31,263 nucleotides of DNA, from positions 1 to 31,263 of the IMG/VR virus record IMGVR_UViG_2654587588_000015. One strand, given 5' to 3'. Below are positions 1,655 to 10,234 of the stretch, one piece after another. The position numbers were made by a program, and so were the translations under genes. The DNA is from a virus. Its lineage: Duplodnaviria > Heunggongvirae > Uroviricota > Caudoviricetes. Each line of letters opens with the position of its first letter. Position 1 is the first letter of the stretch. The notes under the pieces were generated by a model. It saw only the letters and a program-made list of their open reading frames with translations. It was not told the origin of the DNA and ran no database searches.

Positions 1655-1856
1655 ATACAGCGAACGCTATTGGTTTAGTTGGATATTTACTGTGCCGGAC
1701 AAAAACGGTTTGCAGGGAAATCTTAGTTAAGTAGAATGACTGTGGGTGCTTGAGGCTATCTGTCTCAGGCATGAACACCAAAAGGCAGATAGAGAAAAGC
1801 CCCAGTTAACATTACGCGTCCGGCAAGACGCTTAACATTAATCTGAGGCCATATCT

Positions 1857-1916
1857 ATGCGACACATAGAGATTAGCCTCTTACGGACCGAAAGGTCAAG
1901 GAGAAGCAGGCTATGA
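1857..1916 (+). promoter_or_regulatory. Short leader ORF (19 codons) whose TGA overlaps the hok ATG (ATGA), mok-like translational coupling element
   Basis: ATG 1857, in-frame stop at 1914-1916 overlapping hok start 1913-1915. Confidence 0.35.
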
Positions 1917-2626: not shown

Positions 2627-3226
2627 ATGGCGCATATACAACTGGTCAAACAAACCTCTTCCGGATTACTTCTCCCGGCGACGCCGGAGAGTTGCGATTT
2701 TTTGCATCAAATAAAAATAGGCGAGTGGATACACGCAGACTTTAAGCGTGTGCGTAACTACGCATTCCACAAGCGTTTTTTCAAACTCCTGCAATTGGGA
2801 TTCGATTACTGGACTCCGGTCGGTGGGGCGATCACGCCTCGCGAACGAGAACTGCTGTCTGGTTTCGTTGATTACCTGTGTGAATCAGTAGGTCGGGAAC
2901 ACACACCAGCCCTGAGTGATGCCGCAGAGCAATATCTAAATACAGTTGCGACACGCAGAACCCGGGATACGGCATTGCTAAAGTCGTTTGAGGCTTTCCG
3001 CGAGTGGGTAACCATTCAGGCCGGATTTTACACCGAGCATCTTTATCCTGATGGTAGTCGTGGGCGTCGGGCAAAATCTATCGCATTTGCGAACATGGAC
3101 GAAACCGTGTTTCAGCAGGTTTATAAATCTGTACTGAATGTGCTGTGGAACTGGATCCTGTTCCGTAAATTTTCCTCTCCGGAGGAAGTCGAAAATGTGG
3201 CCGTGCAGCTGCTGGAGTTTGCGTAA
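2627..3226 (+). CDS. Lambdoid nin-region protein, DUF1367-like (199 aa)
   Basis: ORF with GGAGA RBS; family assignment from memory of lambdoid DUF1367/YbcN-like proteins, not verified. Confidence 0.6.
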   Translation: MAHIQLVKQTSSGLLLPATPESCDFLHQIKIGEWIHADFKRVRNYAFHKRFFKLLQLGFDYWTPVGGAITPRERELLSGFVDYLCESVGREHTPALSDAAEQYLNTVATRRTRDTALLKSFEAFREWVTIQAGFYTEHLYPDGSRGRRAKSIAFANMDETVFQQVYKSVLNVLWNWILFRKFSSPEEVENVAVQLLEFA

Positions 3227-3516
3227 TGGTGGATTTACGTAAAGCGGCGCGGGGCCAGATGTGCCAGGTCAGAATCCCTGGCTACTGCAATCACAATCCC
3301 GAAACGTCTGTGCTGGCGCATTACCGACTGGCGGGAACGTGCGGAACGGCGATAAAGCCACACGATATGCAGGCAGCGATTGCCTGTAGCTCGTGCCACG
3401 ATTTAATCGACGGGCGGGTAAAAACCAGCGATTACACCAAAGAAGAATTACGCCTGATGCACGCAGAAGGTGTTTTTCGCACACAAGAAATCTGGAGAAA
3501 GGAAGGTTATTTATGA
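3226..3516 (+). CDS. YbcO-like (DUF1364) Cys-rich putative nuclease (96 aa)
   Basis: Start overlaps the upstream stop; multiple Cys/His; sits in the nin region before Q. Confidence 0.6.
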   Translation: MVDLRKAARGQMCQVRIPGYCNHNPETSVLAHYRLAGTCGTAIKPHDMQAAIACSSCHDLIDGRVKTSDYTKEELRLMHAEGVFRTQEIWRKEGYL

Positions 3517-4067
3517 TTTACCCAACGAATACAGGAAAAAGCGGAGAACACCTTCGTCTCACCACGCTGGAAAGTGTCTGGATTCAGGGAAAACTGCGTA
3601 TGTGGGGGCGCTGGTCGTATATTGGTGGCGGTAAGACGGGGAATATGTTCAACCAGTTGTTGACCTCTAAAAAGCTGACAAAAACGGAAATTAACGAGGC
3701 GCTCCGCAGGATGAAAAAAGCAGGTCTGGACAAACCTGAACTTGAGGCTTTTTTGCGGGGTATGATTAACGGCAAGCAAAAGAGCTGGCTGGCACATTGT
3801 ACCGATTCAGAGGCATTAATAATCGACAGGGTTATTGGCGAAGTACTGGCAGAACACCCAGGATTGATTTGTATCCTCCAGCAACGATATGAAGGGAGTG
3901 GGATGACTAAGCGAAAAATGGCTGAATTGCTGAATGATTCACACCCTGAGTGGTGTTACGCCACGTGCCGTAATCGCATAGATGCGTGGTTGAAAATGGC
4001 AGAGTTTATGCTCTATCTGCCGATGCGTGATGCATTCTCTTCCGGGGATTTAAAAACTGTCTGTTGA
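3513..4067 (+). CDS. Late-gene antitermination protein Q-like
   Basis: ATG 3513 overlaps upstream stop (ATGA); gene is immediately followed by a promoter-like element and terminator, upstream of the lysis genes. Confidence 0.6.
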   Translation: MIYPTNTGKSGEHLRLTTLESVWIQGKLRMWGRWSYIGGGKTGNMFNQLLTSKKLTKTEINEALRRMKKAGLDKPELEAFLRGMINGKQKSWLAHCTDSEALIIDRVIGEVLAEHPGLICILQQRYEGSGMTKRKMAELLNDSHPEWCYATCRNRIDAWLKMAEFMLYLPMRDAFSSGDLKTVC

Positions 4068-4093: not shown

Positions 4094-4153
4094 TCCGAAG
4101 CGCCAGCAAAATCTGGCGTCGGGATTGGAACCCCGGATATCGAAACGGTGCAT

Positions 4154-4173
4154 ACCGCGCTGGCGGTTTTTTT
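4154..4173 (+). terminator. tR'-like rho-independent terminator
   Basis: CCGC-GCTG-GCGG hairpin followed by T7. Confidence 0.55.
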
Positions 4174-4336
4174 ATGCGCTAAGCACAGTCACATTCGCGA
4201 TTTATGGCGGGCTGTGTGGGGGCACCGAAAGGTGCACCGGATGTTTCGACCGGTAGTTCCAACCCTGCACAGTTCGCCACCCGATGATTGGAACCTGAAG
4301 GTGGTGAGGTAAAAATTATCGAAACGCGAGGTCGTT

Positions 4337-4900
4337 ATGACTGTTCAAGTTGCTGTCAAAAACCTTTCCCCTGTCACTTATAACCAGATTCCTGTAATCA
4401 CAACTGAGTTACTCGCCCGCCTTTACGGAACAGAAGCAATCCGTATACAGCAGAATCACCATAAAAATAAATCTCGATTTATTGAGGGAAAACACTTCTT
4501 TAAAGCTGTTGGTGATGAGCTCAAAAATTTGCGACTAGTTTTAAACGAGTCGCAAAATGAGGTGAAAATTTCTCCAAAAACCCGCTCCCTCATCCTCTGG
4601 ACAGAACGCGGCGCAGCCCGTCATGCCAAAATGCTCGAAACCGATCAGGCGTGGGATGTGTTCGAAAGACTGGAAGACTGCTATTTCAGACAAAAGGATC
4701 CGTCAGCGCCAGTTTCATGCCAGAAAAGTTACGACACGCGAGTTCTCTGTTATCAGCAAGGCGGTGTCACTGTTTCCACAATTCAGTTGCGGGATGATGA
4801 TATTGTTATTTCCCTTGAGTCATGGCTGGAACTGGCGAGAGCCAATGGTTGGTTTGTTGTTCGCAGAGATAAACTGGTGGAAAGGCTGATGCAGCTTTAA
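4337..4900 (+). CDS. ORF6N/KilA-N-like putative antirepressor or DNA-binding protein (187 aa)
   Basis: N-terminal region resembles recalled ORF6N-type domains; followed by its own terminator. Confidence 0.5.
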   Translation: MTVQVAVKNLSPVTYNQIPVITTELLARLYGTEAIRIQQNHHKNKSRFIEGKHFFKAVGDELKNLRLVLNESQNEVKISPKTRSLILWTERGAARHAKMLETDQAWDVFERLEDCYFRQKDPSAPVSCQKSYDTRVLCYQQGGVTVSTIQLRDDDIVISLESWLELARANGWFVVRRDKLVERLMQL

Positions 4901-5037: not shown

Positions 5038-5268
5038 ATGAAATTTTATGAATTATCTTCTGATTCCCGATCTCAGGCCAAAATCACACTGGGTCAGTTC
5101 ATTGTGGCTCGGGCTAACCCGGGGGTGGATGATTTTGAAAATTTGGGGCATTGCATCGCTGCCGCGTTTATTGCGATGGAGCGCTATGAAAGCGCCCCTG
5201 AGGTTGGTGAGGGGCGTAGCGGGAACGGAATACCCGTTAATGGCGATCAAAACTCACTTCTTGATTAA
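5038..5268 (+). CDS. Small hypothetical protein (76 aa)
   Basis: ATG 5038 with GGAGA upstream; 3' end overlaps the convergent minus-strand gene. Confidence 0.35.
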   Translation: MKFYELSSDSRSQAKITLGQFIVARANPGVDDFENLGHCIAAAFIAMERYESAPEVGEGRSGNGIPVNGDQNSLLD

Positions 5269-5532
5269 ATGCCATGAGCGATCTGCCGCTTGAGTGACTA
5301 GCACCCGAGGGTTCTTTTTTATTGTCCCAGCGATGGCTACAACTTCTTCTCGGACTGCGCGAGCAGATGCGTTTTTTTCGGCTGTGTACTCAGCGTCTGG
5401 AAGATAAAACCAGTTTCCTGCTCCATCTTGAATTTCGCGAAAGTATCTTCGGGATTCCATCGCCTCATGAAGGCGAGCGTAGTCATCGGATGATGCACCC
5501 ACAAGCTCAACGCGGACAGTAAAACTAGCCAT
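5254..5532 (-). CDS. Hypothetical protein (92 aa), opposite strand to the late operon
   Basis: ATG preceded by AAGGAG at 6-nt spacing on the minus strand; longer track ORF trimmed to this start. Confidence 0.55.
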   Translation of the reverse strand: MASFTVRVELVGASSDDYARLHEAMESRRYFREIQDGAGNWFYLPDAEYTAEKNASARAVREEVVAIAGTIKKNPRVLVTQAADRSWHLIKK

Positions 5533-5749
5533 ATATACTCCTTTAATTGATATGGTTACTTTTGGCGATTTAACGATATCAAACACGAGGATATACCGCC
5601 AGAAGCTTAATCTGGTACTCCATCTGGCCCTGGCATGTCCCGGGGCTTTTTCGTTGTTAGGCTCCGGAAACATCCTCGACTTCTTGTGAGCAAGCCAGAG
5701 AGCCTGAATCTTACATTTAGCACCATCCGAACTTTCGGAGGTGAGGCTT

Positions 5750-6091
5750 ATGAAAATGCACAATGTCCCTCATTCCTGGCCTGACTTACTGGAACTCTTA
5801 CAAAGTTGGTGGCGTGGAGATACGCCGCTGGGTGCAGTGGTTATGTCAATTATTATGGCTGGTTTGCGCATTGCCTATTTTGGCGGTGGCGGCGGCTGGA
5901 AACGAAAAACGCTTGAGATTCTGCTTTGTGGTGCTCTGACGCTGACCTTTGCATCCGCGCTTGAGTATGTCGGATGGCCTAAATCACTTTCTGTTGCCAT
6001 TGGTGGTGGGGTGGGGCTGATTGGTGTTGATGCTATTCGTGGTGCGGCAATGAGGGTCATCGGTAACAAGTTCGGTGCCCATAAGGAGTAA
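5750..6091 (+). CDS. S: Lambda S-like class I holin with M-K-M dual-start motif
   Basis: MKMHNV N-terminus (ATG 5750 and ATG 5756) after GGAGGTGAGG RBS; hydrophobic segments; C-terminal region resembles lambda S. Confidence 0.8.
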   Translation: MKMHNVPHSWPDLLELLQSWWRGDTPLGAVVMSIIMAGLRIAYFGGGGGWKRKTLEILLCGALTLTFASALEYVGWPKSLSVAIGGGVGLIGVDAIRGAAMRVIGNKFGAHKE

Positions 6092-6094
6092 TTA

Positions 6095-6571
6095 ATGCAG
6101 ACACTTAATTCCCAGCGTAAAGCTTTCCTTGATATGGTGGCATGGTCAGAAGGAACGGATAACGGGCGACAACCGACACGTAACCACGGTTATGATGTTA
6201 TTGTTGGTGGCGAACTGTTCACTGATTACTCCGATCACCCTCGCAAACTTGTCACGCTAAATCCGAAACTCAAATCAACAGCCGCCGGACGTTACCAGCT
6301 TCTTTCACGCTGGTGGGATGCCTACCGCAAGCAGCTTGGCCTGAAAGACTTCTCTCCGAAAAGCCAGGACGCTGTTGCACTGCAGCAGATTAAGGAGCGT
6401 GGCGCTTTGCCGATGATTGATCGCGGTGATATCCGTCAGGCTATCGACCGTTGCAGCAATATCTGGGCTTCACTGCCGGGGGCTGGTTATGGTCAGTTCG
6501 AGCATAAGGCTGACAGCCTGATTGCAAAATTCAAAGAAGCAGGCGGAACGGTCAGAGATATTGAGGTATGA
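6095..6571 (+). CDS. R: Endolysin, lambda R-like lytic transglycosylase
   Basis: Protein nearly identical to recalled lambda R ([22 protein letters not shown]...); RBS AAGGAG. Confidence 0.93.
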
Positions 6572-7005
6572 GCAGAGTAACCGCGATTATCTCCGCTCTG
6601 GTTATCTGCATCATCGTCTGCCTGTCATGGGCTGTTAATCATTACCGTGATAACGCCATCGCCTACAAAGAGCAGCGCGACAAGGCCGCATCCATCATCG
6701 CTGATATGCAGAAGCGGCAACATGATGTAGCAGAACTCGACGCCAGATACACAAAGGAGCTTGCTGATGCTAATGCGACTATCGAAAGTCTCCGTGCTGA
6801 TGTTTCTGCTGGTCGTAAGCGCCTGCAAGTCGCCGCCACCTGTGCAAAGTCAACGACCGGAGCCAGCGGCATGGGCGATGGAGAAAGCCCAGGACTTACA
6901 GCAGATGCTGAACTCAATTATTACCGTCTCAGAAGTGGAATCGACAGGATAACCGCGCAGGTTAACTACCTGCAGGAATACATCAGGACGCAATGCCTGA
7001 AATGA
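6568..7005 (+). CDS. Rz: i-spanin Rz
   Basis: Start overlaps R stop (ATGA); N-terminal TM segment; high similarity to recalled lambda Rz. Confidence 0.85.
6761..6952 (+). CDS. Rz1: o-spanin Rz1 lipoprotein, embedded in the +1 frame of Rz
   Basis: Signal peptide with lipobox LVVSAC, proline-rich mature part; wholly inside Rz. Confidence 0.75.
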
Positions 7006-7040
7006 TCGGGCGATGAAAACCAAAAAAACAGGAGCAATAC

Positions 7041-7316
7041 ATGACTAAGCTTTATCACCGCATCTCAGCTTTTCTCTCTGGGTGCTGGGCGTTTATCACG
7101 TCTATTTCGTTCGCCATCTTTAGTTTCGGTAGCACAGCATGCTCGCTTAGTCGGGGTCTGTGGCGTGCTATTTCAGCACTAGCGCCGAAATTTTTACCTG
7201 AAAAGGCTGTTTGGCGAATTGTAGAGCGAATGTGTAGTGAGAGCGTTCGCGAGAAGATTAACGTATTTGGACGTCATCCTCGAAATACAGGCGCATTGTG
7301 CAGTTCGTTACTGTAG
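7041..7316 (+). CDS. Hypothetical small protein (91 aa), doubtful
   Basis: RBS-like AGGAG upstream, but the amino-acid composition looks atypical. Confidence 0.3.
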   Translation: MTKLYHRISAFLSGCWAFITSISFAIFSFGSTACSLSRGLWRAISALAPKFLPEKAVWRIVERMCSESVREKINVFGRHPRNTGALCSSLL

Positions 7317-7605
7317 TCATTACAAAGCCTATCTACGGGTGGGCTTGATAATGAAACCGGAATTTATTCTGGTCACTAATTAACGGCAGTACAGCGAAAC
7401 AACCCAAGCCAGTAAGTGGGGAAATAACACTGGCAGCCACTGAAAGATGAACCTCCTGCCTTATGGCAAAAAAGATTCTTTGTGGTGGCGGACTGATGGA
7501 AAGACATCGGTTATTGCAGAGACCATTCAATGAGTGGTCTCGACAATGGCTTATATCCTGCTAAGAGTGATTAACTGGGTGGCAAAAGTTCACCACCAAC
7601 ATCAA

Positions 7606-8037
7606 TTAGATTAAATTATTTCGATAAGCAGAATCGATTAGAGCGTTCATAAAGAGATACTCAACATCTTCGGTATAGTCGATGTCTATTGGAGCTGTTG
7701 AGTCAAGCGCCCCAAAATGCATGCAATTGTTCCAATCAAGAAAAATTTTATGAAACTCCTGTTTTTTTCCATCTCGCGATGTGTAAAAAGTAATAACCCC
7801 AATTAATGAGCCTTCGTGAAGTGAAAGCTTACTTTCTGTAAAACACTTAAAGCGTAGCTGTGGAATTGAAACCTCAAGCTCTCCATCATTTAGCTCTATG
7901 GAAATTTGCTTATTAAGGTCTCGTTTGTTATTCCATGCGGTGTTAACACGTTCTAATAAATCATTCGTATTTTGCTGTAATAACTCACCTTTCCTAGAAA
8001 GTAACTGTGACAATCCGATAAACGTTAATGAGCTCAT
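7606..8037 (-). CDS. Hypothetical AT-rich cargo protein (143 aa), no TM segment, function unknown
   Basis: Minus-strand ORF, ATG 8037 with AAAGGTGA upstream; low GC relative to flanks; divergent from terS. Confidence 0.55.
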   Translation of the reverse strand: MSSLTFIGLSQLLSRKGELLQQNTNDLLERVNTAWNNKRDLNKQISIELNDGELEVSIPQLRFKCFTESKLSLHEGSLIGVITFYTSRDGKKQEFHKIFLDWNNCMHFGALDSTAPIDIDYTEDVEYLFMNALIDSAYRNNLI

Positions 8038-8057
8038 AAATTCACCTTTGAGAAAAA

Positions 8058-8609
8058 ATGGCACTCACAGACAAGCAAGAGATGTTCTGTCGCGAGTACC
8101 TCATCGATTTAAACGCCACGCAAGCGGCTATTCGGGCGGGGTACAGCGCAAAGACAGCCAACCGTACTGCGTCCGAAAACATGTCAAAACCTGACATCAA
8201 GTTAAGAATCGCTGAACTGAAAGCGCAACGCAATGATCTTGTTGGTATTAATGCAGAATATGTACTTAATCGCCTTATTGAAATCGACCAGATGGATGTG
8301 CTTGACATTCTCCTGCAAAACGGTGAGCTAAAACCCATTAAAGACTGGCCTAAGGTATGGCGCACAACGTTATCAGGAATGGATGTCGTGGAGATGGCAT
8401 CCGCAGATAGCACCGCACTTCTGAAGAAAATCAAATGGCCTGATAAGGTTAAAAACCTTGAGTTGCTTGGGCGTCATGTTTCTGTTCAGGCGTTTAAAGA
8501 CAACATCAAAAATGAAGTGACTGGCGCTGATGGAGGACCAGTCAGAACAGAAATTACCAACTTAACGCCGGAGCAGGCTGCAGAGGCGTATAGAAAAATG
8601 ATGGACTAA
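8058..8609 (+). CDS. Terminase small subunit (Terminase_2-like)
   Basis: N-terminal motif [21 protein letters not shown] typical of this family; immediately upstream of the large subunit. Confidence 0.8.
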
Positions 8610-8611
8610 GT

Positions 8612-10234
8612 ATGCCGTTACCATTCCCCTTCGATTTTAAACATCCTGATTACCAGATGGTTTTTGAATGGCGGATGGAACGCTTACAGCGCATTCGCCA
8701 GAACCCTGAAATATTGCCAGCACTAAAACAGTTTTACCGAACCAACCCGGCTCAGTTCATCATTGACTGGGGCATGACAACGGACCCGCGTAATATTGAT
8801 TATGGCCTGCCGGTGACCATTCCGTTTTTACTCTTCCCTAAGCAGGAGGAGTGGATCCACTGGATTATGGAACGCTGGGGCAATCGGGAGAATGGTATTA
8901 CCGAAAAATCCCGTGAAATGGGGCTCAGTTGGACCGCGATCGGACTGGCCTGCTCGCTTTGTCTCTTCAACAAAGAAATGGTTATCGGTTTCGGCTCCCG
9001 TAAAGAGGAATACGTCGACAGCACTGGTGACCCGAAAGCATTGTTCTGGAAGGCACGCAAGTTCGTGGAAACGCTACCTGTAGAGTTTCGCGGTTCGTGG
9101 AGTGAGAAGAAGCACGCGCCATATATGCGTGTTGAGTTTCCTGAAACTGGTGCCGTTATCAAAGGCGAGGCTGGCGATAATATTGGTCGTGGTGACCGTA
9201 CCACGCTTTATCTGGTTGATGAGGCTGCATTCCTTCAGCGTCCTCTGCTGATTGATGCGGCGTTGTCACAAACGACGCGTTGCCGTATCGACCTGAGTTC
9301 AGTTAACGGCATGGCTAACCCGTTCGCTCAGAAGCGTCATGGCGGGAAGATACCGGTATTCACATTCCACTGGCGGGATGATCCTCGCAAGGATGAAGAG
9401 TGGTATCGCAGGGAATGCGAGAAAATCGATAATCCGGTGGTGGTGGCACAGGAACTTGATCTGAACTACAGCGCATCAGCGGAAGGCGTTCTGATTCCAT
9501 CCGAATGGGTACAGGCTGCCGTTGATGCGCATATCAAACTGGGTATCCAGCCAACAGGCAAACGACTTGGCGCGATGGATGTCGCCGACGAAGGCAGGGA
9601 CAAAAATGCCTTTTCCACCCGTCATGGCTTCCTCTTGGAAAATGTGCGGGAATGGTCCGGTGTGGGCAGCGACATTTATCAGTCCGTCGAGAAGGTTTTC
9701 GGCTTTTGCGAACAGGACAACCTCGAAGAGTTTCGCTTTGACGAGGACGGGCTGGGCGCTGGCGTTCGCGGCGATGCACGCGCTATCAACGAACTGCGTA
9801 ACGCTGCGCGTCGACCGTCAATACTTGCCACACCGTTTCGAGGTAGTGGCGCGGTATTTGATCCGGATGATGAAGCTGTTCGCGGGGACAACGGGCAAGC
9901 AGCACGTCTGAACAAGGACTTCTTCGCTAACGCCAAAGCCCAGAGCTGGTGGCGGTTACGTAAACTTTTTCAGAATACCTGGCGCGCCGTGGTTGAAGGT
10001 ATGGCTTACAACCCGGACGAAATCATCTCAATCAGCAGTAGCATGGCACTCAAAGATAAACTCATCATCGAGCTTTCGCAGCCGACCTATTCCATTAATG
10101 GTGTGGGAAAAATCGTTATTGATAAACAGCCTGATGGAACCCGATCGCCAAACCTTGCCGACTCGGTGATGATCAACTATGCCCCAATGAATTCAGCCCT
10201 GAACATCTGGGAGCTGCTAGGGAGACAGGCCTGA
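8612..10234 (+). CDS. Terminase large subunit (540 aa)
   Basis: Size, position after terS and before portal; family assignment by recall. Confidence 0.85.

What the first reader, a model, noticed from the sequence alone, without database searches (positions are those of the whole stretch)
7006..8057. AT-rich opposite-strand cargo gene and a 290-bp gap between the lysis cassette and terminase
The Rz-to-terS interval is a classic moron slot (bor sits here in lambda). Here it holds a minus-strand 143-aa cytoplasmic protein (7606-8037) with a good RBS and no family I recognise, a doubtful plus-strand ORF (7041-7316), and about 290 bp with no convincing ORF (7317-7605). The minus gene is transcribed divergently from terS, with only about 20 bp between the two start codons. 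This is my best candidate for an undescribed lysogen-expressed function such as defence, anti-defence or exclusion. The gap could alternatively hold cos.
Basis: partly seen in the sequence, partly recalled or inferred. Interest (0 to 1): 0.6.

Follow-up and report, generated by a model that had tools for sequence, protein, structure and literature searches.

The report
Unknown prophage cargo gene beside terminase
A small, AT-rich, backwards-facing gene of unknown function sits in a swap-prone slot just upstream of a prophage's DNA-packaging gene; related phages keep a proven anti-phage defence gene (Tai) and a host-manipulating gene (Pid) in that slot, so this gene is a reasonable but untested candidate accessory or defence factor.

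Summary
A 143-aa minus-strand gene ("X", 7606-8037; 35.9% GC against 49.5% for the window; good RBS) starts 20 bp from terS.

X is a real gene (dN/dS 0.12-0.18). It belongs to a very rare enterobacterial family with no hit in Pfam, PHROGs, NCBIfam or PADLOC. A confident AlphaFold model shows a helix, six-strand sheet, helix sandwich with no conserved catalytic residues.

Every family member examined lies on the opposite strand, just upstream of a Terminase_2 terS or a terS relic.

The slot is a cargo hotspot. In 108 of 113 viral contigs with this terS 5' end, a minus-strand ORF starts 8-40 nt upstream of terS. These ORFs form about 38 unrelated families, including homologs of phi80 TaiEcA (validated defence) and P22 Pid.

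The window's flanks match those of the P22/BTP1 pid locus. The pid promoter and long 5'UTR lie in a terS relic.

The 289-bp "gap" is recombination debris shared by cos and pac phages. It is not cos.

X's function is untested. My best guess is a lysogen-expressed protein-binding defence or exclusion factor. It is a new member of a known kind, of moderate interest.

The parts
7041..7316 (+). 91-aa ORF on the late strand. It is a possible small basic protein with a hydrophobic N-terminus. It is not a consistent partner of X.
   Evidence: phrog_34701 E 3.5e-55. HK140 gp68, 97% DNA identity. The sequence is in 113/5426 E. coli genomes, and no gene is annotated there in the 12 listed records. 3 synonymous and 2 non-synonymous differences against HK140. 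It is absent next to X in L002, L003 and L149-L156.
7317..7372 (.). Mosaic boundary sequence shared with HK022, HK140, Sf6 and P22-like phages, where it follows different upstream genes.
   Evidence: blastn, (Sf6 L023 701-750, 96%; HK022 L022; VSe13 L024).
7373..7383 (+). Relic of the last codons and stop codon of a rha gene.
   Evidence: The alignment to BTP1 L012 2351-2533 begins inside rha, which ends at L012 2361. In E. coli F829 an intact Rha gene ends here.
7384..7555 (+). Conserved segment that follows rha and precedes orf80/DUF2560 in P22-like phages. Window 7463-7555 reads in frame as the first 31 codons of the 118-aa DUF2560 annotation of VSe13/146851_sal5. It is cut off at about 7555-7560, the same breakpoint as the pid insert in P22/BTP1.
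   Evidence: The phrog_571 profile covers only residues 27-118 of the 118-aa form, so translation of this extension is uncertain.
7578..7597 (-). 8-bp hairpin 9 nt after the X stop codon (GGUGGUGAACUUUUGCCACC) with no U-tract. It is a weak or atypical 3' end for the X transcript.
   Evidence: A comparable hairpin lies 3' of X in Citrobacter L008. L004, L017 and pid have U-rich or canonical terminators. The scan tool reports no terminator here.
7606..8037 (-). Gene X: a 143-aa, 16.5-kDa, pI 5.0 soluble protein of an undescribed family. The fold is helix(6-37), six beta strands, helix(125-139).
   Evidence: family; dN/dS 0.12-0.18; AF2 pLDDT 87.9, pTM 0.80; fold searches; no family hit.
8038..8057 (.). 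20-bp divergent spacer. It holds the Shine-Dalgarno of X (8049-8043, minus strand) and the weak GAG(A) Shine-Dalgarno of terS (8050-8053, plus strand). It is too short to hold a promoter.
   Evidence: The spacer is 20 nt in all close relatives and 11-33 nt for other cargo families. Homology between cassettes breaks exactly at the terS ATG.
8058..8609 (+). terS, small terminase subunit (Terminase_2).
   Evidence: PF03592 E 3.3e-39; phrog_51 E 9.4e-52.
8058..8153 (+). Conserved block of terS codons 1-32, the common right-hand flank of all cargo cassettes. Synonymous variation is suppressed here.
   Evidence: 88-96% DNA identity where neighbouring sequence is 30-70%. pS is 0.05-0.38, against 0.5-1.0 in the rest of terS. 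Codon entropy is 0.3-0.5 bits, against 1.0-1.6 bits, in 98 unique terS genes. Relics of the block lie next to pid (P22/BTP1), next to X in L015, and in Klebsiella phage ST405-OXA48phi1.3.
8205..8233 (-). Candidate weak promoter for X (TTGCGT-17 nt-GATTCT). It is positionally homologous to the mapped P22/BTP1 pid promoter (TTGCTT-17-AATCCT). The predicted TSS is about 8198, giving a 5'UTR of about 161 nt that is antisense to the terS start.
   Evidence: Alignment A4; coordinates; pid TSS and -10 box from PMC8835761. This rests on homology only. The consensus scan finds no promoter.
8161..8187 (-). Alternative candidate promoter for X (TTGACA-15 nt-TACGGT). It is the best PWM hit on the minus strand inside terS.
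   Evidence: score 9.4; the same position is the best site in 32 of 112 loci. The 15-nt spacer is suboptimal. Not tested.

Best explanation
Gene X (7606-8037, minus strand) is an autonomous accessory ('moron') gene. It sits in a hypervariable cargo hotspot that abuts the start codon of Terminase_2-type terS genes.

Shown:
- X is a real gene under purifying selection. It encodes a small soluble alpha/beta-sandwich protein with no conserved catalytic residues, from a very rare enterobacterial family.
- X always faces away from terS. It is AT-rich and is present in only a minority of otherwise similar phages.
- The same slot holds about 38 unrelated cargo families, including Tai (validated anti-phage defence) and Pid (validated host modulator).
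- Cassettes are exchanged between a conserved terS 5' block on the right and variable boundary sequences on the left.

Inferred:
- X is transcribed from a weak constitutive promoter embedded in the terS coding sequence, at the position of the mapped pid promoter. The mRNA would carry a 5'UTR of about 120-160 nt that is antisense to the terS start.
- X would therefore be made in lysogens (or carrier-state cells). It would be damped during the prophage's own lytic cycle by opposing Q-antiterminated late transcription, the 'noncontiguous operon' logic shown for phi80 taiEcA.

Most likely activity (a guess by analogy and fold): a stoichiometric protein-binding factor that protects the lysogen from competing phages by binding a phage component. 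It is not an enzyme.

The confidence of 0.4 is for the whole statement. Taken separately: that X is an accessory gene in a cargo hotspot, about 0.9; that it is expressed in lysogens from a promoter inside terS, about 0.55; that it is an anti-phage defence or exclusion factor, about 0.35-0.4.
For: Real gene:
- Length is conserved at 143 aa in 15 clusters.
- dN/dS is 0.12-0.18.
- The RBS is good.

Rare and undescribed:
- 21 hits among 1.84 billion representative proteins.
- 7 of 5,426 complete E. coli genomes carry it.
- No Pfam, PHROG, NCBIfam or PADLOC hit.
- All database names are 'hypothetical protein'.

Fold:
- pLDDT 87.9, pTM 0.80, and all five models agree.
- Across the diverse alignment only hydrophobic core positions are conserved.

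Synteny:
- X lies opposite-strand upstream of a Terminase_2 terS, or of a terS relic, in every context examined, down to 20% identity.
- TerL and portal families differ between these contexts.

Hotspot:
- 108 of 113 contigs have a minus-strand ORF of at least 50 aa starting 8-40 nt from the terS ATG, against 21% at random positions. These ORFs form 38 clusters.
- Cargo GC is below terS GC in 100 of 104 cases.
- Homology breaks at the terS ATG.

Precedents in the same slot:
- TaiEcA homologs, E 1e-16 to 1e-22. TaiEcA is lysogen-expressed, divergently oriented, lies upstream of the packaging module, and defends against lambdoid phages (PMC11364771).
- Pid shares both flanks with the window. Its TSS lies 174 nt upstream, inside the terS relic (PMC8835761). 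pid is highly expressed in BTP1 lysogens (PMC7067206).

Promoter location:
- The 11-33-nt spacers leave no room for a promoter outside terS.
Against: - There are no expression data for X.
- The consensus scan finds no sigma-70 promoter on either strand in 6900-8700. The two candidate sites are weak.
- The window's 3' hairpin lacks a U-tract.
- No homology to any known defence protein: PADLOC gave 0 hits and Tai hhalign probability is 0.4%.
- Guilt by association is weak. Only one of about 38 cargo families is a proven defence. Another, Pid, acts on host metabolism instead. None of the 34 cargo representatives scanned hit PADLOC.
- No late-strand 'anti' partner accompanies X consistently.
Confidence: 0.4

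Rival explanations
1. X is a host-physiology modulator of the Pid type. It would be made in lysogens or carrier-state cells, would bind a host regulator or enzyme, and would rewire host metabolism or stress behaviour. It would not act on other phages.
For: The window shares its flanks with the pid locus, and the left breakpoint and terS-derived upstream region are the same. Pid is likewise a small soluble ORFan that derepresses the host dgo operon (PMC3573128; PMC8835761). X has a non-enzymatic, binding-type fold.
Against: X and Pid are not homologous (hhalign probability 0.3%). No host target can be inferred. Family members 20-30% identical sit next to near-identical flanks. That pattern fits an arms-race target better than a conserved host protein, though this is only suggestive.
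Confidence: 0.25
2. X is a counter-defence (anti-restriction, anti-CBASS or similar) protein that helps its own phage.
Confidence: 0.1
3. X serves its own phage's DNA packaging, for example as a TerS partner or a regulator of terS/pac use. That would explain the invariant adjacency to Terminase_2 terS.
For: X is adjacent to terS or a terS relic in all contexts examined. The terS 5' block shows constraint at the DNA level.
Against: X is on the strand opposite the late operon. About 37 unrelated cargo families replace X next to equivalent terS genes, so X is dispensable for packaging. X and terS divergence are uncoupled: X is 26% identical where terS is 74% identical (L017), and 84% where terS is 67% (L008). 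X also persists next to mere terS relics (L015).
Confidence: 0.07
4. The functional product is mainly the RNA. The minus-strand transcript would act as an antisense RNA against the conserved terS 5' end, like BTP1 STnc6030, silencing terS of the prophage or of superinfecting relatives. The ORF would be secondary.
For: A transcript starting inside terS would be complementary to the terS ribosome-binding site and first 100-140 nt. That block is 88-96% identical across many phages. There is precedent for an antisense exclusion RNA in BTP1 (PMC7067206).
Against: The ORF is clearly under protein-level purifying selection. If antisense exclusion were important, target phages would be expected to diversify synonymous sites in the block, not conserve them. 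No transcript data exist.
Confidence: 0.08
5. The 289-bp gap (7317-7605) holds cos/pac or another cis-acting packaging site.
For: It lies just upstream of the terminase genes and has no convincing ORF.
Against: The same sequence occurs in 195 phage records with unrelated packaging systems (HK022/HK140 cos; P22 and Sf6 pac) and in 1,224 E. coli records. In HK140 it lies about 860 bp from the genome end. X-carrying prophages differ in how much of it they keep: junctions fall at 7317, 7373 and 7379. It decomposes into a rha relic and orf80-upstream sequence. No Rfam family matches above noise.
Confidence: 0.02

Closest known systems
P22/BTP1 pid moron locus (Cenens et al. 2013, PMC3573128; Wolput et al. 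2022, PMC8835761)
   Same: Same genomic slot, with homologous flanks. Window 7373-7555 is 96% identical to the sequence after BTP1 rha. Window 8059-8308 (terS 5') is about 75% identical to the 250 bp upstream of pid, and 80% identical over the first ~145 bp (8054-8198). Both genes lie opposite to the late genes. Both encode small soluble ORFan proteins and carry their own 3' hairpin. The pid promoter is far upstream, inside terS-derived sequence.
   Different: The proteins are unrelated (86 aa against 143 aa; hhalign probability 0.3%). In P22 the terS sequence is a dead relic, whereas here it is the working terS. pid has a canonical terminator and X does not. Pid's host target (the dgo operon) gives no clue to X's target.
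phi80 TaiEcA / AtiEcA tail-assembly-inhibition defence in a 'noncontiguous operon' (He et al. 2024, PMC11364771)
   Same: The gene is divergently oriented and interrupts the Q-dependent late operon just upstream of the packaging module. Tai is expressed constitutively in the lysogen. Tai homologs occupy the very same terS-adjacent slot in 7 of the scanned viral contigs.
   Different: X is not homologous to Tai (204 aa; hhalign probability 0.4%). No Ati-like counter-defence gene accompanies X. No phenotype is known for X.
Lambda bor and the moron concept (Juhala et al. 2000; my own knowledge)
   Same: An extra gene lies between Rz and the packaging genes, on the strand opposite the late operon. 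It has atypical base composition and is present in only some relatives.
   Different: Bor is a lipoprotein with a signal sequence, whereas X is cytoplasmic. The two share no sequence similarity.
Frataxin/CyaY fold
   Different: Sequence identity is 7-15% and there is no HMM hit. Helix 1 of X is not acid-rich, unlike frataxin's iron-binding ridge. X is 25-35 residues longer. Similar scores go to Mediator Med14 and type III secretion chaperones, so this is a shared simple fold and not evidence of family membership.
Burkholderia phage Mana uncharacterised protein A0A873WDE3 (151 aa)
   Same: It is the only full-length structural twin found (Foldseek TM 0.77/0.73, rmsd 2.7 A over 138 columns). It is probably CPT_Mana_015, a terminator-flanked extra gene in the tail region of a temperate P2-like phage.
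   Different: There is no detectable sequence similarity (hhalign probability 0.2%). It lies on the late strand, in a different slot and a different host phylum-level lineage. Its function is unknown too.
P2/P4 defence hotspots (Rousset et al. 2022, PMC9122126)
   Same: The concept is the same: a fixed site in a temperate phage, bounded by conserved genes, holding many alternative AT-rich cargo genes expressed in the lysogen.
   Different: The phage group and flanks differ. Here the cargo is mostly single small genes (56-324 aa), and none of the 34 representatives scanned hit PADLOC.

Membership tests
Moron (autonomous accessory gene in a temperate phage) | Present in some but absent from, or replaced in, otherwise related phages at the same site | tested here: met
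   X is in 7/5426 E. coli genomes, while its flanks are in more than 1,200. 38 alternative cargo clusters occupy the same site. pid or no insert occupies the site in P22-like phages.
Moron (autonomous accessory gene in a temperate phage) | Base composition distinct from neighbouring phage genes | tested here: met
   X is 35.9% GC, against 49.5% for the window and 46-52% for neighbouring genes.
Moron (autonomous accessory gene in a temperate phage) | Own promoter | tested here: inconclusive
   The scan finds no consensus sigma-70 site. A weak site is homologous to the mapped pid promoter (TTGCGT-17-GATTCT, 8233-8205), and there is a TTGACA-15-TACGGT site. The 20-bp spacer forces any promoter to lie inside terS.
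Moron (autonomous accessory gene in a temperate phage) | Own transcription terminator | tested here: inconclusive
   There is an 8-bp hairpin at 7597-7578 without a U-tract, and the tool does not call it. Relatives L004 and L017, and pid, have U-rich or canonical terminators.
Moron (autonomous accessory gene in a temperate phage) | Expressed from the repressed prophage | not testable with these tools
   This needs RNA-seq or a reporter in a lysogen. The only support is by analogy to pid in BTP1 (TPM >100, PMC7067206) and TaiEcA in phi80 (PMC11364771).
Pid family (phrog_16546) | Sequence homology to Pid | tested here: not met
   hhalign probability 0.3%. Pid hits phrog_16546, whereas X hits no PHROG.
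Tai (tail assembly inhibition) defence proteins | Sequence homology to TaiEcA (phi80 orf63) | tested here: not met
   hhalign probability 0.4%. In blastp, Tai matches a different cargo cluster and not X.
Tai (tail assembly inhibition) defence proteins | Blocks tail assembly of invading lambdoid phages | not testable with these tools
   This needs plaque assays and electron microscopy.
Known anti-phage defence systems (PADLOC-DB v2.0.0) | Match to any defence-protein HMM | tested here: not met
   0 families at E <= 10. The library dates from 2023 and does not include Tai.
Frataxin/CyaY | Sequence-profile match, and an acidic iron-binding ridge on helix 1 / strand 1 | tested here: not met
cos / pac site (for the 7317-7605 gap) | Sequence specific to phages that share the cognate terminase | tested here: not met
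   The gap sequence is shared by phages with unrelated terminases and packaging modes. It is only partly retained in other X/terS prophages.
Described RNA families (Rfam 15) for the gap | Covariance-model match at or near the gathering score | tested here: not met
   There are no gathering-level hits in 6900-8150. The best is Proteo-phage-1 at 16.8 bits against a gathering score of 42.

The most novel reading that the evidence does not exclude
The first ~96 nt of Terminase_2 terS genes may be a shared 'docking platform'. This conserved block, whose synonymous sites are constrained, would provide three things: the recombination flank, part of the transcribed leader, and (with the adjoining terS sequence) the promoter for a large interchangeable set of lysogen-expressed, backwards-facing cargo genes (at least 38 families). 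On this reading X is a previously unknown single-protein anti-phage defence. It would work by binding a packaging or virion-assembly component of competing phages. Its mRNA leader would be antisense to the conserved terS start and would add RNA-level interference with terS of related invaders.
Probability: 0.15. Interest if true: 0.75.

Novelty: new member of a known kind. Interest (0 to 1): 0.5.

Why it matters
If X is a lysogen-expressed defence or host-modulating protein, it adds a new small protein family with a confidently predicted fold to the set of prophage accessory functions.

The larger value lies in the slot. A 23-nt motif in the terS 5' end retrieves a hotspot with about 38 mostly uncharacterised cargo families. 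Two of them (Tai and Pid) already have proven phenotypes. This gives a cheap, well-bounded list of candidate accessory genes to screen.

The analysis also offers a simple evolutionary explanation for the 'exceptionally long' 174-nt 5'UTR and distant weak promoter of P22 pid: they are the remains of a terS gene.

It further flags an unexplained DNA-level constraint on terS codons 1-32. This could be a pac site, an antisense promoter or leader, or a recombination linker.

Tried and rejected
Searches that led nowhere:
- Family searches with X found nothing significant in Pfam, PHROGs, NCBIfam or PADLOC. The best Pfam hit, DUF6861 at E 0.32, is noise.
- tblastn of X against 50,697 phage records gave no hit. 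A distant member in Cronobacter phage ES2 turned up only later, by synteny plus hhalign. Its 'transcriptional regulator' annotation has no support from the fold or from any HMM.
- The PDB sequence-profile search and Foldseek against PDB gave nothing significant.
- The afdb50 fold library was unavailable.
- Rfam on the gap gave only noise. RNA folding of the X 3' region gave an unremarkable z-score of -0.8.
- The promoter/terminator consensus scan found no promoter and no terminator for X.
With the close alignment on genome contigs it returned no confirmed locus. I used viral contigs instead.
- Searches for the protein accessions in the literature returned nothing.

Ideas considered and rejected:
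- X homologous to Pid, TaiEcA or the Klebsiella 187-aa cargo: rejected by hhalign.
- Mana_015 as a sequence relative: rejected.
- Co-divergence of X with its terS as a sign of physical partnership: not seen.
- The 91-aa ORF as a dedicated partner of X (Ati-like): rejected, because it is absent from all other X loci.
- Partner genes downstream of distant X relatives (L013, L019) and other neighbours gave no informative Pfam hits.
- A coding test of the 91-aa ORF was uninformative, with only 5 differences.
Full report
**What is there**

The window is a lambdoid prophage late region.
- Q is at 3393-4067, followed by isrK and C4 RNAs and an anti-repressor.
- The lysis genes are holin (5741-6091), endolysin (6095-6571) and Rz (6568-7005).
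- The packaging and head genes are terS (8058-8609, PF03592 Terminase_2), TerL (8612-10234, phrog_2), portal (Phage_portal_3), a Mu-F-like protein, DUF2213 and the major capsid protein.

- a plus-strand 91-aa ORF (7041-7316);
- 289 bp without a convincing ORF (7317-7605);
- a minus-strand 143-aa ORF (7606-8037, here called X). It has an AAAGGTG Shine-Dalgarno, is 35.9% GC against 49.5% for the window, and has exactly 20 bp between its ATG and the terS ATG.

**X is a real gene of a rare, undescribed family**

- X has no significant match in Pfam, PHROGs, NCBIfam or PADLOC.
- It has no tblastn match in 50,697 phage records.
- It is carried by 7 of 5,426 complete E. coli genomes.
- A word-indexed search of 5.8 billion proteins found 15 clusters. 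All are 143 aa, 68-99% identical, and come from E. coli, Enterobacter, Citrobacter and Klebsiella.
- An exhaustive profile search of 1.84 billion representatives found 21 hits. About 16 are true full-length relatives of 143-148 aa at 20-36% identity, from Pantoea, Kosakonia and Citrobacter koseri.
- Every database name is 'hypothetical protein'.
- dN/dS is 0.12-0.18. Synonymous sites are saturated between members that are still 68% identical in protein. The ORF is therefore translated and under purifying selection.

**Fold**

- With a diverse alignment, AlphaFold2 gives pLDDT 87.9 and pTM 0.80, and all five models agree (the earlier shallow-alignment run is).
- The model has a long N-terminal helix (6-37), a six-stranded antiparallel sheet (46-108) and a C-terminal helix (125-139).
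- Foldseek against PDB finds nothing.
- In BFVD there is one full-length twin, an uncharacterised 151-aa protein of Burkholderia phage Mana (TM 0.77). It is probably CPT_Mana_015 and shows no sequence similarity.
- Across the diverse family only hydrophobic core positions and the C-terminal L-I(-S-L) are conserved. No polar catalytic constellation is present.
- I read X as a non-enzymatic binding module and not as a frataxin.

**Synteny**

In every context I could retrieve, the X homolog lies between the lysis cassette and a Terminase_2 terS, on the opposite strand and divergent from terS. These contexts are:
- two E. coli chromosomes;
- loci for six homologs down to about 21% identity;
- eight IMG/VR contigs;
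- Cronobacter phage ES2, whose 144-aa 'transcriptional regulator' AEM24710.1 is a family member (hhalign 99.85%).

The spacer is 20 nt in close relatives, 25 nt in one Pantoea locus and 119 nt in a Kosakonia locus. In a C. koseri locus, X abuts a 59-bp terS relic instead. TerL and portal families differ among these loci.

X and terS divergence are uncoupled. X is 26% identical where terS is 74% identical, and 84% where terS is 67%. This argues against a co-evolving physical partnership with its own TerS.

**The slot is the pid slot, and a general hotspot**

- Window 7373-7555 is 96% identical to the sequence right after rha in BTP1/P22.
- Window 8054-8198 (terS 5') is 80% identical to the region upstream of pid. 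The similarity extends to 250 bp at 75%.
- Published mapping puts the pid TSS 174 nt upstream of its ATG, with an eroded -10 box AATCCT (PMC8835761). In BTP1 coordinates this lies inside the degraded terS copy. The 'exceptionally long' pid 5'UTR and its weak promoter are therefore remnants of a Terminase_2 terS.
- Cenens et al. had already called pid a moron at a site where relatives carry no insert or a different one (PMC3573128).

I scanned IMG/VR for a 23-nt motif in terS codons 13-20.
- 108 of 113 usable contigs carry a minus-strand ORF of at least 50 aa whose start codon lies 8-40 nt upstream of the terS ATG. At random positions in the same contigs the figure is 21%.
- The ORFs fall into 38 sequence clusters of 56-324 aa. 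X is one cluster (6 contigs) and Pid is another.
- Cargo GC is lower than terS GC in 100 of 104 cases, with medians of 41.4% and 49.8%.
- Homology between cassettes stops exactly at the terS ATG. Each cassette brings its own spacer and both ribosome-binding sites.
- Only 4 of 34 representatives hit Pfam, all of them DUFs. None hit PADLOC.
- One seven-contig cluster is homologous to phi80 TaiEcA (29-33% identity, E 1e-16 to 1e-22). TaiEcA is an experimentally validated, lysogen-expressed, divergently oriented anti-phage protein 'upstream of the packaging module', organised as a noncontiguous operon with the late genes (PMC11364771).
- X itself is not homologous to Tai or to Pid.

**The conserved terS 5' block**

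- terS codons 1-32 (8058-8153) are 88-96% identical at the DNA level between loci whose adjacent sequences are 30-70% identical.
- Pairwise synonymous differences are 0.05-0.38 there, against 0.5-1.0 in the rest of terS.
- In 98 unique terS genes, synonymous codon entropy is 0.3-0.5 bits in codons 1-11 and 22-32, which lie outside the search motif. It is 1.0-1.6 bits further on.
- This block is the common right-hand flank of all cassettes.
- I could not distinguish between three readings: a pac site, part of the cargo leader or promoter region, or simply a recombination linker.

**Expression signals for X**

- The 20-bp spacer cannot hold a promoter, so transcription must start inside terS.
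- The window keeps a site positionally homologous to the pid promoter (TTGCGT-17-GATTCT, 8233-8205; predicted TSS about 8198) and a TTGACA-15-TACGGT site (8187-8161).
- Both sites are weak, and the consensus scan reports none.
- After the stop codon there is an 8-bp hairpin (7597-7578) without a U-tract. Relatives and pid have better terminators.
- Expression is therefore inferred and not shown.

**The gap and the 91-aa ORF**

- The gap sequence is 91-99% identical in 195 phage records, including HK022, HK140, Sf6 and P22, and occurs in 1,224 E. coli records, where it is mostly unannotated.
- It decomposes into three parts:
  - a boundary segment (7317-7372);
  - the last codons of rha (7373-7383);
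  - the sequence that in insert-free P22-like phages runs into orf80/DUF2560. Window 7463-7555 equals the first 31 codons of the 118-aa annotation in VSe13 and 146851_sal5, although the PHROG profile covers only residues 27-118.
- It is cut at the same breakpoint as the pid insert.
- Because cos and pac phages with unrelated terminases share it, it is not cos. No Rfam family fits.
- The 91-aa ORF equals HK140 gp68 and phrog_34701. It is not annotated in the listed E. coli records and does not travel with X. Its coding status stays open.

**Interpretation**

Shown:
- X is an accessory gene in a cargo hotspot bounded by terS.
- It encodes a small soluble non-enzymatic protein of a new family.

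Inferred:
- X is expressed in lysogens from a terS-embedded promoter, and opposed by late transcription during induction.

Guess:
- X is a protein-binding defence or exclusion factor (about 0.35-0.4), or alternatively a Pid-like host modulator (about 0.25).
- Less likely readings are counter-defence, a packaging helper, or a mainly antisense-RNA function.

The kind of element is known (moron; pid locus; Tai position), so this is a new member of a known kind. The extent of the hotspot, the terS origin of the pid leader and the constrained terS block are useful by-products that I did not find described in the papers read.

Noticed in passing
window 8058-8153 (terS codons 1-32): Synonymous variation is strongly suppressed in the first 32 codons of Terminase_2 terS. 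Codon entropy is 0.3-0.5 bits there against 1.0-1.6 bits downstream in 98 unique genes, and pairwise pS is 0.05-0.38 against 0.5-1.0. Possible causes are a pac site, an antisense leader or promoter, or a recombination linker.
   Followed up: partly
L012 (BTP1) 2922-3170; P22 NC_002371 40745-40990: The P22/BTP1 pid promoter and its 174-nt 5'UTR lie inside a ~250-bp degraded copy of a Terminase_2 terS gene. This explains the unusually long leader and distant weak promoter reported for pid.
   Followed up: yes
L036, L072, L080, L099, L104, L132, L143 (IMG/VR contigs), upstream of terS: Homologs of the validated defence protein TaiEcA of phi80 (29-33% identity, E 1e-16 to 1e-22) sit in the same backwards-facing slot, 14-25 nt from the terS ATG. 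About 35 other cargo families in the slot are uncharacterised; the few Pfam hits are DUF2158, DUF6173, DUF4145 and DUF2441.
   Followed up: partly
window 5254-5529 (minus strand): A second backwards-facing ORF interrupts the late operon, between the anti-repressor gene (4337-4900) and the holin (5741-6091). It is 91 aa from an internal ATG and matches phrog_8894 (unknown function), with no Pfam hit. It may be another moron.
   Followed up: partly
window 4100-4173 and 4200-4284: isrK (RF01394, 72.1 bits) and C4 antisense RNA (RF01695, 72.8 bits) lie directly after Q and before an ORF6N anti-repressor. This is the Gifsy-1-type isrK/anti-repressor arrangement at the start of the late operon.
   Followed up: no
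window 1744-1915: A full-length match to sok antitoxin RNA (RF01794, 106.7 bits) indicates a hok/sok-type toxin-antitoxin locus in the nin/early-right region of the prophage.
   Followed up: no
L026 (Cronobacter phage ES2) 2046-2480, minus strand: AEM24710.1, annotated 'transcriptional regulator', is a distant member of the X family (hhalign 99.85%) and lies 20 bp from terS. The annotation appears unfounded. ES2 is a cultured phage in which the family could be studied.
   Followed up: partly
L013 6573-6896; L019 486-794; L018 6447-6596: In some Kosakonia and Pantoea loci the distant X homolog is followed on the same strand by a ~102-107-aa ORF. In L019 this ORF overlaps the X stop codon. It has no Pfam hit and could be a two-gene version of the cassette. 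L017, which carries the identical X protein, lacks it.
   Followed up: partly
L025 (Cronobacter phage phiES15) 2261-2479, minus strand: An unannotated 72-aa ORF occupies the same slot, 21 nt from terS, in a region the record leaves empty. A homolog exists in IMG/VR contig L048.
   Followed up: partly
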